Shown one piece after another: positions 1,824-3,317 of a stretch of 64,000 nucleotides of DNA. Position 1 is the first letter of the stretch. Each line of letters begins with the position of its first letter. The stretch is from positions 42,214 to 106,213 of the forward strand of contig MWBZ01000005.1 of the NCBI GenBank assembly GCA_002069765.1. Direction: 5' to 3'. The notes below the pieces were generated by a model. It was given only the letters and a program-made list of their open reading frames with translations. It ran no database searches and was not told where the DNA came from. Position numbers and translations under genes: made by a program. Origin of the DNA: a bacterium ADurb.Bin243. Lineage in GTDB: Bacteria > Muiribacteriota > UBA9980.

Positions 1824-3317
1824 TTAATAGCCTTTGGAATCGTTAGCCGCGCCTGAAACTATTGCGACGGACGCCGATGCGCCCACGCGCGTCGCGCCGG
1901 CCGCGATCATTTCCTGGGCGGTTTTTAAGTCTCTGACTCCGCCCGACGCTTTGACGCCCATTTCGGGGCCGACGGTTTTTCGCATTAACGCGATGTCGGC
2001 CGCGGTGGCGCCGCCCCCGCCGAAGCCGGTGGAGGTTTTTACGAAGTGCGCGCGGGCGTTTTTGGAGAGCCTGCATGCCGCAGCTTTTTCGTCGTCGGTC
2101 AGAAGGCTGGTTTCGAGTATTACCTTAACCGTTTTTCCGCCGGCCGCCCTGACGACCTGTCTGATGTCTTCTTCTACGAGCTGCAGATTGCCTGATTTAA
2201 GCGCGCCTATGTTAATGACCATGTCTATTTCATCGGCGCCGTCGGCTATCGCCTGGACAGTTTCGCAGGCTTTAGCGCTTGTGGAAGTGGCTCCCAGAGG
2301 GAATCCTACAACGGTGCACACCATTACGCCGCTTCCGGCGAGTTTTTCGGCGCAGTATTTTACCCAGCCGGGGTTTACGCATACCGAGGCGAATTTATAT
2401 TTTGAAGCTTCCGAGCAGAGCTTGTCTATATCGCTCTGTTTTGCGTCAGGCTTTAAAAGCGTATGGTCTATCATTTTAGCGAGACGAGCGTCGAATTTGC
2501 CGCCGAGGGCTTCTACGCCGGGGTTCGATGAAATTCGCGCCGCGCCGTTGTCTTTTATGACGTTTACGGCGTTTTCCCTTTTAACTACGCAATGGCCGCA
2601 GGACATGCAGCCGGCCGGAGCCGTGCATGCGGTCTGAGCCGCCTGGCCGCCGGAATTTCCGGTTAAAGCCGAATAAGGATAAATTTCGCCGCAGGCCCTT
2701 TCTAAAGCGCCGCAGATCTGCGCGAGGGGAACTACCGAAACGCCGAATTCGCTTAATTTGGCTATCTTCTGGTTGATTTCACGCATGATGGCGGGCCTGG
2801 TGTCGCCTATCTGGTTGAGGAGCGGTTCGGCCGAAACTATCAGGGGCTTTTTGGAAATCATGTGCCATACAAGGTAATTACATACCATAGAGTCGGTGTT
2901 GAGGCTCGATATATGCGTGAGGGCCGATAACGACATGAAAGCGAGCACTACCGCGTCGTATTTATTTAAAAATTCGCTGCGGTCGCTGTACTGAAACGAC
3001 GTGTGAATATTGGCCGCTCTGGTTTTTGACGCGAGCTCGTTTTTGTCGAAAACAGCTTTAGCGCCGTCGGATAAAAGTATGTCATATTTCGCGCCGGATA
3101 ATTTTTCAATTTCACGGTAAAAAACTTCGCGCATATTGGATACGCCCGTTAAAACCACGAGCACGTTTGCGCCGCCCTGTTTTAATGAAGGGGCCGTCTG
3201 AGGCTTCGCCGAAGGCTTATTGAACGTGCTCAGAACTTCGCGGGTAATGAGCTCGATTAAATTTTTATTATCCATATCGAATAATTCTCCAACTTCAAAA
3301 ATTTTGCGGAATTTCAT
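1824..3317 (-). CDS. deoC: Encapsulated multidomain deoxyribose-phosphate aldolase. It has an N-terminal amphipathic encapsulation-peptide-like helix and a Rossmann/flavoprotein-like domain. A Cys cluster ([13 protein letters not shown]) follows. The C-terminal domain is a DeoC/DERA aldolase.
   Basis: C-terminal 220 aa read [11 protein letters not shown]...VCVNPGWV...GFPLGATST...[14 protein letters not shown]...ASGGVRD, which is the classic DERA motif set including the Schiff-base Lys in VKTSTGF. N-terminus has [14 protein letters not shown] (amphipathic helix) followed by a [10 protein letters not shown] linker. The middle has [10 protein letters not shown]...[30 protein letters not shown]...[10 protein letters not shown], which resembles flavoprotein/HFCD-type Rossmann domains (tentative). 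Confidence 0.8.

What the first reader, a model, noticed from the sequence alone, without database searches (positions are those of the whole stretch)
1824..3317. Tri-partite encapsulated aldolase: encapsulation helix + flavoprotein-like Rossmann domain + Cys cluster + DERA
DERA is normally a stand-alone ~220-aa TIM barrel. Here it carries a ~270-aa N-terminal region. That region begins with an amphipathic helix ([14 protein letters not shown]) and a Pro/Ala/Lys linker typical of BMC cargo targeting. It is followed by a domain whose glycine-rich strand-helix motifs resemble HFCD/flavoprotein folds. [14 protein letters not shown] cluster could bind a metal or Fe-S centre. A redox-capable module fused to the signature aldolase would suggest cofactor recycling inside the shell.
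Basis: inference. Interest (0 to 1): 0.55.

Follow-up and report, generated by a model that had tools for sequence, protein, structure and literature searches.

The report
Microcompartment aldolase with flavoprotein-like arm
This gene encodes the deoxyribose-phosphate aldolase of a bacterial protein organelle, and it carries a long extra arm (a targeting helix, a flavoprotein-fold domain and a four-cysteine metal site); a similar fusion was noted recently in archaea but its purpose is still unknown, and here it sits in an unusual organelle locus that lacks the normal aldehyde dehydrogenase.

Summary

The four-Cys motif is not special to this protein. It belongs to the ordinary short extension of SPU-type DERAs and resembles a one-cluster ferredoxin site. 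The HFCD domain has been inserted into that extension. It is homologous to stand-alone BMC accessory proteins that carry a similar N-terminal amphipathic helix and a EutQ/PduM-like tail.

The fusion recurs in 14 sequence clusters. A 2025 preprint notes it in Hodarchaeales ("Flav+DERA", "uncommon in BMC") without giving a function.

In this clade the hallmark flavin-family motif is altered, yet the domain is under strong purifying selection. A redox role is therefore possible but unproven, and I favour an assembly/adaptor role.

The locus lacks AldDH. It encodes instead an aldehyde:ferredoxin oxidoreductase fused to a truncated DERA-like domain, which seems new.

The parts
1824..3317 (-). Whole ORF of 497 aa including the stop codon. 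The probable true start is M15, at window 3275.
3219..3269 (-). Encapsulation-peptide-like amphipathic helix, residues 17-33 ([17 protein letters not shown]).
   Evidence: Hydrophobic moment 0.53, above the 95th percentile. AF2 helix with pLDDT about 85. 80% identity within the clade. The consensus L(I/V)xxITxEVLxxL is shared by the fusions and the stand-alone relatives.
3171..3218 (-). Disordered linker 1, rich in P/A/S/K/Q, residues 34-49.
   Evidence: pLDDT below 50. 26% identity and dN/dS 0.4-0.6.
2691..3170 (-). HFCD / PF02441-fold alpha/beta domain, residues 50-209. The altered motif S129-L-S-A-L-T-H135 and the invariant D142 lie here.
2628..2690 (-). Low-complexity linker 2, residues 210-230.
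   Evidence: pLDDT below 50. 29% identity within the clade.
2589..2627 (-). Four-Cys motif C231-x5-C237-x2-C240-G-H-C243.
   Evidence: Invariant in the three closest sequences, with four Cys kept across the clade. Present in 12 of 16 fusion sequences and in short SPU-DERA extensions. It resembles the ferredoxin motif CxxCGxCxxx(K/R/C)P.
2514..2588 (-). Helix plus the '[10 protein letters not shown]' element, residues 244-268. This is the part of the SPU-DERA extension that is kept even when the Cys motif is absent.
   Evidence: G258 and R261 are invariant across all 16 fusion sequences. Consensus.
1827..2489 (-). DERA TIM barrel, residues 277-497. Contains D (EIDMV), the Schiff-base K (FVKTSTGF) and the second K (GVKASGG).
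3345..3629 (-). BMC-H shell protein immediately upstream.
   Evidence: PF00936, E 1e-29.
3710..4000 (-). BMC-P vertex protein.
   Evidence: PF03319, E 2.5e-23.
4039..4326 (-). Second BMC-P. The real start is probably M49 of the listed ORF, overlapping the RpiB stop.
   Evidence: PF03319 on residues 49-131. Relatives are 95 aa long.
4323..5009 (-). RpiB-like protein with Asp in place of the catalytic Cys (GIMVDGAG). It has an 85-aa C-terminal tail made of an EP-like helix (QQLIATIVERVMAAL) and a TIGR02536/PduM-like end motif.
   Evidence: The Asp substitution is typical of SPU RPIs (PMC11585597).
5063..5347 (-). BMC-H shell protein, the first gene of the operon.
   Evidence: PF00936, E 4e-27.
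5423..5451 (-). Sigma-70-like promoter match (TTGACT-17-TATAAT, 11 of 12) upstream of the operon.
   Evidence: This is a consensus match only.
1..1674 (-). Next gene downstream, cut by the window edge. It has a truncated DERA-like N-domain of about 150-180 aa fused to an aldehyde:ferredoxin oxidoreductase (AFOR_N and AFOR_C).
   Evidence: The full-length 765-aa version is in L003.

Best explanation
The gene encodes the signature enzyme of a sugar-phosphate (deoxyribose-5-phosphate) utilising microcompartment. It is a fully intact DERA that cleaves dR5P to glyceraldehyde-3-P and acetaldehyde inside the shell.

Its N-terminal arm is composite. It begins with an amphipathic encapsulation helix on a disordered tether, which targets or aggregates the enzyme with the shell and core. 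That is followed by an HFCD-fold domain. Last come the four-Cys knuckle and GAxRI element, which all SPU-type DERAs carry just before the barrel.

The HFCD domain is a fused copy of a family of stand-alone BMC accessory proteins, related to TIGR02536 and to the 'PF02441 flavoprotein' genes of SPU, BUF/xanthine and other BMC loci. Those proteins have a similar N-terminal amphipathic helix plus a C-terminal tail that resembles the shell-binding EutQ N-terminus and the PduM C-terminus.

My committed reading is an inference, which I put at about 0.4 on its own. The domain acts mainly as a multimerising adaptor. HFCD domains form obligate trimers or dodecamers and DERA is a dimer. The fusion would therefore cross-link DERA into the cargo core and present several encapsulation helices at once. 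Any flavin would be secondary in this clade.

Shown: the domain architecture, the folds, the conservation, the catalytic residues and the locus context. Inferred: encapsulation, oligomerisation and metal or flavin occupancy.
For: - DERA identity and catalytic residues.
- BMC operon context, conserved in 9 other loci.
- EP helix and tether. EP-dependent recruitment of a Flav+DERA fusion into shells was shown experimentally in Hodarchaeales (PMC12747264).
- Stand-alone relatives with a similar N-terminal helix and a PduM/EutQ-like tail. They sit between shell genes in a BUF/xanthine-type locus and in a canonical SPU locus. This breadth across unrelated chemistries argues for a generic role.
- EutQ H1/H2, the region those tails match, binds the shell (PMC12487888).
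- HFCD proteins are trimers or dodecamers (PMC7794376; preprint). CoaBC is a natural HFCD-trimer plus dimeric-enzyme fusion that forms a closed dodecamer.
- Full-length SPU DERA is insoluble and becomes soluble once the extension is removed (PMC11585597).
- In the window clade the S-x-N-T-x-x-K motif is changed to S-L-S-A-L-T-H, yet dN/dS stays at 0.05-0.07. That fits a conserved structural role that may no longer depend on the ancestral cofactor site.
Against: - Most family members, including most other fusions, keep the HFCD cofactor-region motifs (TG, SxxA, T/S-x-N-T-x-x-K, invariant D). A pure scaffold would not need them.
- The nearest structural neighbour, DmrB/AfpA, is an electron-carrier flavoprotein.
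- A ferredoxin-like Cys motif lies 20 residues downstream, and an AOR that needs an electron acceptor is the next gene.
- No oligomer model, cofactor test or encapsulation test was possible here.
- The pTM of 0.53 says nothing about quaternary structure.
Confidence: 0.55

Rival explanations
1. Redox relay. The HFCD domain binds a flavin and the four-Cys knuckle binds an Fe-S cluster. Together they form a lumenal electron acceptor or wire. In this locus it would take electrons from the neighbouring aldehyde:ferredoxin oxidoreductase as acetaldehyde is oxidised. In canonical SPU loci it would feed the PduS/MNdh-BMC-T route.
For: - The closest folds are all flavin proteins.
- The family lacks the decarboxylase His.
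- The Cys motif reads as CxxCGxCxxx(K/R)P with a remote upstream Cys, and four relatives have the complete ferredoxin CxxCxxCxxxCP. One source annotates such a fragment as 'ferredoxin'.
- The operon has an AOR but no ferredoxin, PduS or BMC-T gene.
- Sutter et al. 2024 suggest PF02441 proteins of BMC operons may be electron acceptors.
- From my own knowledge, not checked here: AfpA accepts electrons from ferredoxin (Ding and Ferry 2004).
Against: - In this clade N, T and K of the hallmark motif are replaced.
- Pfam is below threshold, and there is no Fer4 or HMA family hit at a meaningful score.
- Three fusion clusters lack the Cys motif altogether.
- The fusion occurs with AOR, with AldDH plus PduS, or with neither, so it does not track any one redox partner.
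- Two loci of the same clade have no AOR.
Confidence: 0.3
2. The HFCD-like domain is an enzyme in its own right, such as a decarboxylase, a flavin prenyltransferase or a reductase. It would act on a metabolite of the pathway, and the fusion would channel that metabolite to or from DERA.
For: The HFCD superfamily is mostly enzymes (EpiD, CoaC, UbiX, DmrB, DpaB). The domain is under strong purifying selection.
Against: - The catalytic His of the Cys decarboxylases is not conserved.
- No equivalog model is matched.
- Stand-alone relatives occur in BMC types with unrelated substrates.
- No step of dR5P catabolism needs such an activity.
Confidence: 0.07
3. Artefact: the long ORF results from a mis-assembly, a frameshift or a read-through joining two separate genes.
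For: Nothing specific. PF02441-type genes do exist as separate genes in other BMC loci.
Against: The same uninterrupted ORF is found in 10 independent assemblies of the clade and in 14 clusters at 50% identity. The linkers vary in length while the frame is kept. The same fusion is reported independently in archaea.
Confidence: 0.01

Closest known systems
Flav+DERA fusion of Hodarchaeales archaeal microcompartments (bioRxiv 2025, PMC12747264)
   Same: A flavoprotein-type domain is fused N-terminally to the DERA of an SPU-type compartment, with a predicted encapsulation peptide. The authors call it 'uncommon in BMC' and show EP-dependent recruitment.
   Different: Those operons have AldDH, MNdh/PduS, BMC-T and PTAC/citrate synthase. 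The window locus has none of these and has an AOR instead. The preprint gives no function for the Flav domain and does not mention the Cys motif. I could not compare sequences directly because theirs are not held here.
SPU-type BMC DERA with a ~70-aa extension (Dwyer, Sutter and Kerfeld 2024, PMC11585597)
   Same: The DERA is the signature enzyme and has an N-terminal amphipathic helix plus a short structured element before the barrel. An RpiB with Asp replacing the catalytic Cys is adjacent. The enzymes of the deoxyribose pathway are present.
   Different: Here a 160-aa HFCD-fold domain and a second linker are inserted between the helix and the short element. The paper describes the element as 'two beta strands' and does not mention the four conserved Cys that I find in most such extensions.
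Stand-alone BMC-associated PF02441/TIGR02536-like proteins ('flavoprotein' of EUT2, GRM3, SPU and BUF loci; Axen 2014, Sutter 2024)
   Same: The HFCD-like domain is homologous (E 1e-8 to 1e-4 with the window-clade profile), and the N-terminal helix has the same consensus.
   Different: They are separate proteins of about 260 aa ending in a PduM/EutQ-like motif. In the window that motif sits on the RpiB tail, not on the DERA. They keep the T/S-x-N-T-x-x-K motif that the window clade has lost. None has been characterised.
HFCD flavoproteins (EpiD, CoaC/PPC-DC, TvaF, UbiX, DpaB, AfpA/DmrB)
   Different: There is no catalytic His. The score is below the Pfam threshold. The motif is altered in this clade. 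Flavin binding and oligomeric state are unknown.
CoaBC (HFCD CoaC domain fused to dimeric CoaB)
   Same: This is a natural fusion of an HFCD trimer-forming domain to an enzyme that dimerises, and it gives a closed dodecamer (PMC7794376).
   Different: It is an analogy of architecture only. The partner enzyme is unrelated, the domain order and linkers differ, and CoaC is catalytic.
Aldehyde:ferredoxin oxidoreductase family (for the downstream gene)
   Same: AFOR_N and AFOR_C domains are present (81 and 122 bits), and a DTIGIC motif and a Cys-rich segment are kept.
   Different: It is only weakly similar to curated AOR equivalogs (32 bits). It carries a truncated DERA-derived N-domain and is encoded inside a BMC operon. 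No paper in the library describes an AOR in a BMC locus.

Membership tests
Deoxyribose-phosphate aldolase (DeoC, TIGR00126, EC 4.1.2.4) | Score above the curated equivalog cutoff | tested here: met
   288.5 bits against a cutoff of 117.3.
Deoxyribose-phosphate aldolase (DeoC, TIGR00126, EC 4.1.2.4) | Class I aldolase TIM-barrel fold | tested here: met
Deoxyribose-phosphate aldolase (DeoC, TIGR00126, EC 4.1.2.4) | Catalytic Asp, Schiff-base Lys and second Lys (E. coli D102, K167, K201) | tested here: met
   [13 protein letters not shown] and GVKASGG are identical to solved DERAs. The K184L mutant entry differs from wild type exactly at the K aligned to the window's GVKASGG.
Deoxyribose-phosphate aldolase (DeoC, TIGR00126, EC 4.1.2.4) | dR5P cleavage activity | not testable with these tools
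   Needs an enzyme assay.
SPU-type bacterial microcompartment locus (Sutter 2021; Dwyer 2024 curation) | BMC-H and BMC-P shell genes adjacent to a DERA that has an N-terminal extension | tested here: met
   Two BMC-H and two BMC-P lie within 2 kb upstream. The extension is present.
SPU-type bacterial microcompartment locus (Sutter 2021; Dwyer 2024 curation) | RpiB-type isomerase with Asp replacing the catalytic Cys | tested here: met
   PF02502 at E 4e-53. The sequence reads GIMVDGAG. The criterion comes from PMC11585597.
SPU-type bacterial microcompartment locus (Sutter 2021; Dwyer 2024 curation) | Acylating aldehyde dehydrogenase (PF00171) in the locus, which the 2024 curation requires | tested here: not met
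   A canonical SPU AldDH finds no homologue in the 64-kb window or in the ~16-21 kb stretches held for 7 related loci. Pfam on the downstream genes shows AOR, DeoB and HEAT instead.
SPU-type bacterial microcompartment locus (Sutter 2021; Dwyer 2024 curation) | A triplet of BMC-P and at least one BMC-T | tested here: not met
   The operon and its relatives have only two BMC-P and no tandem-BMC gene.
BMC encapsulation peptide | Terminal amphipathic helix of about 15-20 aa joined to the domain by a poorly conserved flexible linker | tested here: met
BMC encapsulation peptide | The peptide is necessary and sufficient for packaging | not testable with these tools
   Shown only for the Hodarchaeales Flav+DERA (PMC12747264).
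HFCD / PF02441 flavoprotein family | Pfam gathering threshold | tested here: not met
   21.4-21.6 bits against 22.7. One relative is recorded as 'Flavoprotein (weak)'.
HFCD / PF02441 flavoprotein family | HFCD Rossmann-like fold | tested here: met
HFCD / PF02441 flavoprotein family | Conserved P-A-S-A-N-T-x-x-K..G-x-x-D-N-L motif | tested here: not met
   The family consensus P-x-L-T-x-N-T-x-x-K aligns to EpiD PASANTINK. The window has [10 protein letters not shown], and only the Ser and the downstream Asp are kept.
HFCD / PF02441 flavoprotein family | Active-site His of the Cys decarboxylases (EpiD His67) | tested here: not met
   The family consensus has no His at the aligned position. That this His is catalytic comes from my own knowledge.
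HFCD / PF02441 flavoprotein family | Non-covalent FMN/FAD and a homo-trimer or dodecamer | not testable with these tools
   Needs purified protein or multimer modelling.
4Fe-4S ferredoxin-type site | CxxCxxCxxxCP motif or a Fer4 family hit | tested here: not met
   The window has C-x5-C-x2-C-G-H-C with no following C-P. No Fer4 hit appears at E up to 10. Four relatives do carry the full motif.
HMA / CopZ metal-binding domain | GMxCxxC within a beta-alpha-beta-beta-alpha-beta domain, scoring above the family cutoff | tested here: not met
   15.8 bits against a cutoff of 95, and only 17 residues aligned.

The most novel reading that the evidence does not exclude
This clade builds a minimal microcompartment that is independent of NAD and CoA. 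DERA releases acetaldehyde. The next enzyme is a tungsten/molybdenum-type aldehyde:ferredoxin oxidoreductase, which docks onto DERA through its own dead DERA-like domain. The electrons are taken up by the DERA arm itself, through the four-Cys Fe-S site and the flavoprotein-fold domain, so the arm acts as a built-in lumenal electron carrier. That would be a metabolosome without the aldehyde dehydrogenase core that defines the class.
Probability: 0.12. Interest if true: 0.8.

Novelty: new variant of a known kind. Interest (0 to 1): 0.5.

Why it matters
SPU compartments are among the most widespread bacterial organelles, and their cofactor economy is unresolved. A DERA with a built-in flavoprotein-fold domain and a conserved four-Cys site points to one of two things: an unrecognised assembly principle (a trimer domain fused to a dimeric enzyme, giving a self-cross-linking cargo) or an unrecognised lumenal redox element. 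Either can be tested directly with one recombinant protein.

Two by-products may matter more than the fusion itself:

- The four-Cys, ferredoxin-like motif appears to be a general feature of SPU-DERA extensions and is not discussed in the published characterisation.
- This clade's locus replaces the aldehyde dehydrogenase, so far treated as universal in SPU loci, with an aldehyde:ferredoxin oxidoreductase fused to a truncated DERA domain.

Tried and rejected
- AlphaFold2 with only the 3 closest sequences gave an unusable model (pLDDT 52.7). I repeated it with 41 sequences.
- The single-clade profile against PDB sequences gave no meaningful hits. The broader family profile did.
- I tested whether the 'V..I...GA.RI' element of the DERA extension is a half copy of the PduM/EutQ-like shell-binding motif. 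hhalign found no similarity (probability 0.14%), so I rejected the idea.
- I considered filing the Cys motif under the CopZ/HMA or Fer4 families. Scores are far below the cutoffs.
The close-clade alignment worked.
- The search with the AOR's DERA-like N-domain returned only ordinary DERAs at 29-35% identity and no further AOR fusions. Its spread outside the clade is therefore unknown.
- The search with the Cys-motif profile returned only proteins of 126 aa or fewer, mostly gene fragments. Counts from it are biased towards sequences that have the motif.
- I could not do a residue-level check of FMN contacts.
- The AFDB fold library was unavailable.
- The supplement of the 2024 SPU paper, which tabulates extensions by subtype, is not held.
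Full report
**The observation**

The closest relative starts at the window's Met15, and a GGAG lies 11 nt upstream of that ATG. The protein is therefore probably 483 aa.

**Anatomy of the N-terminal 276 residues**

With a 41-sequence alignment AlphaFold2 gives a confident model (mean pLDDT 86.3). In ORF numbering it shows:

- a helix at 17-33;
- a disordered stretch at 34-49;
- a compact alpha/beta domain at 50-209 with pLDDT above 90;
- a second disordered stretch at 210-230;
- a lower-confidence region at 231-268 that holds the four cysteines;
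- the DERA barrel.

The helix is amphipathic. The 14-mer has a hydrophobic moment of 0.53, above the 95th percentile of the protein; for the overlapping 15-mer (moment 0.50), 5.8% of shuffles reach the observed value. Across the ten members of the clade the helix is 80% identical, linker 1 is 26%, the alpha/beta domain 73%, linker 2 is 29%, the Cys region 66% and DERA 87%. The corresponding dN/dS values are about 0.05-0.07 for the alpha/beta domain, 0.02-0.04 for DERA and 0.2-0.7 for the linkers. The extra domain is clearly maintained by selection, and the fusion is not an assembly artefact.

**What the alpha/beta domain is**

A profile built from 32 family members finds TvaF (E 1e-8), EpiD (8e-7), DpaB (2e-6), PPC-DC, UbiX and AfpA in the PDB sequence set. 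The domain therefore has the HFCD flavoprotein fold and is a remote homologue of that superfamily.

The alignment to EpiD shows two things. The family keeps the P-x-L-(T/S)-x-N-T-x-x-K...D motif, which corresponds to PASANTINK...D in EpiD. It does not keep the His that, from my own knowledge, is the catalytic base of the Cys decarboxylases. In the window and its whole clade the motif reads [10 protein letters not shown]. Asn, Thr and Lys are replaced and only the Ser and the downstream Asp142 remain. I could not check flavin contacts residue by residue.

**Relatives**

A word-indexed search of 5.8 billion proteins with the N-terminal region found only two close relatives, both fused to DERA. 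An exhaustive HMMER search of 1.84 billion cluster representatives found 42 hits, which fall into three classes.

(a) Fourteen clusters of 446-504-aa proteins have the same architecture: helix, HFCD-like domain, usually the Cys motif, then DERA.

(b) About twenty-three clusters are stand-alone proteins, mostly about 260-290 aa. They have the same N-terminal helix consensus and an HFCD-like domain, and nearly all end in a motif of the form ITxxDI...IITPLAxDxAxExGIxI. These match TIGR02536 (the 'ethanolamine utilization protein' family) below its cutoff. They also match CoaBC, AfpA and DpaB models. Their tails weakly match the C-end of PduM and positions 2-47 of the EutQ model. That EutQ segment (helices H1/H2) has been shown to bind the shell (PMC12487888). 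One stand-alone member lies between shell genes of a BUF/xanthine-type locus. Another is next to a PTAC and a radical-SAM enzyme. A third is in a canonical SPU locus that also has the fusion.

(c) Short fragments consist of an N-terminal helix, the Cys motif, a GAxRI element and the start of DERA.

**The Cys motif is part of the ordinary SPU-DERA extension**

A profile of the Cys motif plus the DERA start retrieved 500 proteins. The listed ones are mostly N-terminal gene fragments of DERAs with a short extension. Of 128 fetched sequences that have the GAxR element followed by the DERA start, 102 have at least four Cys in the preceding 34 residues. The spacings are x(4-9)-2-2, 2-3-3, 3-4-3 or 1-4-3. 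This set is biased because the query contained the motif.

The commonest form reads C-x(n)-C-x2-C-G-x-C-x3-(K/R)-P. Four sequences have the full ferredoxin motif CxxCxxCxxxCP. The motif therefore looks like a single-cluster ferredoxin-type site with a remote fourth ligand. No Fer4 or HMA model is matched at a meaningful score, so a structural Zn site is not excluded.

The published characterisation of SPU DERAs describes the extension as a helix of about 30 residues plus two low-confidence beta strands, and does not mention cysteines or metals (PMC11585597).

In the window protein, then, the HFCD domain has been inserted between the helix and the rest of a standard SPU-DERA extension. Among the 16 fusion sequences aligned, 12 keep all four Cys, one keeps three and three have none. 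The GAxR element is invariant.

**Prior description**

A 2025 preprint on Hodarchaeales archaeal microcompartments states that DERA in most of those operons is fused to a flavoprotein domain, 'which is uncommon in BMC'. It predicts an encapsulation peptide on Flav+DERA and shows that EP-containing enzymes are recruited to shells while EP deletions are not. It proposes no function for the Flav domain (PMC12747264). Axen 2014 and Sutter 2024 note PF02441 genes in BMC loci and speculate on electron transfer. The fusion as such is therefore not new. Its bacterial occurrence, the Cys motif and the context below are not described in the literature I could search.

**Locus context**

The operon starts at a strong promoter-like site at 5451-5423. 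Reading on the minus strand it contains BMC-H, RpiB, BMC-P, BMC-P, BMC-H, this gene, and then a gene cut by the window edge.

The RpiB has Asp in place of the catalytic Cys, as in all SPU RPIs. It carries a C-terminal tail with an EP-like helix and the TIGR02536/PduM-like end motif.

Seven MAG genomes carry the same locus. One is titled UBP16, one Candidatus Wallbacteria, and one is 94% identical to the window. Two metagenome contigs also carry it. In the near-identical L003 the downstream genes are a 765-aa protein, a phosphopentomutase (DeoB, 515 bits) and a HEAT-repeat protein.

The 765-aa protein is an aldehyde:ferredoxin oxidoreductase (AFOR_N 81 bits, AFOR_C 122 bits). It is preceded by a truncated DERA-derived domain: TIGR00126 positions 16-138 at E 5e-15, and 28% identity to the window's DERA. 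By ungapped continuation of the alignment, the Schiff-base Lys position reads Val and the last two strands are missing; this is my inference.

The AOR is present in the window and in six of the eight related loci that extend far enough downstream to tell; L001 and L006 lack it, and L002 is too short to tell. Canonical SPU AldDH, PduS, PTAC, TIM and class II aldolase sequences find no homologue in the 64-kb window or in the stretches (about 16-21 kb) held for the seven related loci. There are only two BMC-P and no BMC-T.

The locus therefore fails the 2024 curation rule for SPU loci, which requires AldDH, while sharing the signature enzyme, RPI and shell types. A full-text search found no paper describing an AOR in a BMC locus.

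In contrast, a more distant fusion (P0007) sits in a textbook SPU locus with PTAC, AldDH, PduS, BMC-T-sized shell genes, three BMC-P, TIM, RpiB and class II aldolase. The HFCD-DERA fusion is thus not tied to the AOR.

**How it most likely works**

Shown:

- an intact DERA;
- a conserved terminal amphipathic helix on a variable tether;
- an HFCD-fold domain under purifying selection;
- a conserved four-Cys site;
- a BMC operon with enzymes that feed (DeoB) and follow (AOR) the DERA reaction.

Inferred: DERA is packaged through its helix and cleaves dR5P in the lumen. The AOR, possibly docked through its DERA-like domain, oxidises the acetaldehyde.

For the HFCD domain I favour a multimerising adaptor role, for five reasons:

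- Its stand-alone homologues carry a similar N-terminal amphipathic helix and a tail resembling a demonstrated shell-binding segment.
- They occur in BMC types with unrelated chemistry.
- HFCD domains are obligate trimers or dodecamers while DERA is dimeric, so the fusion would cross-link cargo much as CoaBC self-assembles.
- Full-length SPU DERA aggregates through its extension.
- In this clade the ancestral cofactor motif has changed without relaxation of selection.

The main rival is a redox relay of flavin plus Fe-S. It is supported by the nature of the nearest folds, by the retention of cofactor-region motifs in most of the family, by the ferredoxin-like Cys motif, and by the adjacent AOR, which lacks any encoded acceptor. 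The two readings are not exclusive. I put them at roughly 0.4 and 0.3.

**Verdict**

The fusion is a bacterial example of an architecture already noted in Asgard archaea. It is of unknown function and sits here in a divergent SPU-like locus without AldDH. Interest is moderate for the fusion itself. It is higher for the general four-Cys motif of SPU DERAs and for the DERA-like-AOR fusion.

Noticed in passing
window 1-1674 (-), cut by the window edge; full length in L003 7034-9331: The gene after the DERA is an aldehyde:ferredoxin oxidoreductase (AFOR_N plus AFOR_C). It carries a truncated DERA-derived N-domain of about 150-180 aa that appears to lack the Schiff-base Lys. It is present in the window and in 6 of the 8 related loci that extend far enough downstream to tell. 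I found no paper describing an AOR in a BMC locus.
   Followed up: partly
window 1-64000; L003-L009: Canonical SPU AldDH, PduS/MNdh and PTAC sequences find no homologue in the window or in the ~16-21 kb stretches held for 7 related loci, and no BMC-T or third BMC-P was seen in the operons. The compartment locus is minimal (2 BMC-H, 2 BMC-P) and fails the published SPU curation rule.
   Followed up: partly
window 4323-4580 (-), the C-terminal tail of the RpiB gene 4323-5009: The RpiB has Asp at the catalytic Cys position. It has an 85-aa C-terminal tail with an EP-like helix (QQLIATIVERVMAAL) and an end motif that matches the C-end of TIGR02536 (E 9.5e-5) and, weakly, PduM. The published SPU RPIs are described with an N-terminal EP instead.
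   Followed up: partly
P0022-P0159 (short DERA N-termini from metagenomes); window 2589-2627: Most SPU-type DERA extensions that I fetched carry four Cys just before a GAxRI element, in several spacings. A few have a complete CxxCxxCxxxCP ferredoxin motif. The 2024 characterisation of SPU DERA does not mention this.
   Followed up: partly
L012 2082-2840; L015 8001-8801; L014 7538-8341: Stand-alone HFCD-like proteins have an EP-like N-terminal helix and a PduM/EutQ-like C-terminal motif. They occur in a canonical SPU locus (alongside the fusion), in a BUF/xanthine-type locus between shell genes, and next to a PTAC and a radical-SAM gene.
   Followed up: partly
window 5566-6177 (+), 6217-6864 (+), 6892-8523 (+): Three divergently transcribed neighbours are largely conserved next to the locus in relatives. 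They are a 203-aa charged protein with no family hit, an isochorismatase-family protein, and a 543-aa protein with a weak nucleoside-phosphorylase (PNP_UDP_1) match. The last would fit deoxynucleoside catabolism feeding DeoB and DERA.
   Followed up: no
L003 10682-12793 and the equivalent position in L004-L009: A HEAT-repeat protein of about 700 aa always follows the phosphopentomutase at the end of the operon (70-89% identity across the clade). Its role is unknown.
   Followed up: no
window 4039-4470 (-): The mechanically listed 143-aa ORF for the first BMC-P starts at a TTG inside the RpiB gene. Relatives show a 95-aa protein whose start overlaps the RpiB stop by 4 nt, so the true start is probably near 4326.
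   Followed up: yes
P0003, P0005, P0008, P0010, P0024 (more distant fusion proteins): Several distant HFCD-DERA fusions have a conserved Cys-Cys pair after strand 5 of the HFCD-like domain (for example DSIYCC, DSIICC). This is where HFCD decarboxylases have the PxMNxxMW substrate clamp. The window clade has EPLLNQ there.
   Followed up: no
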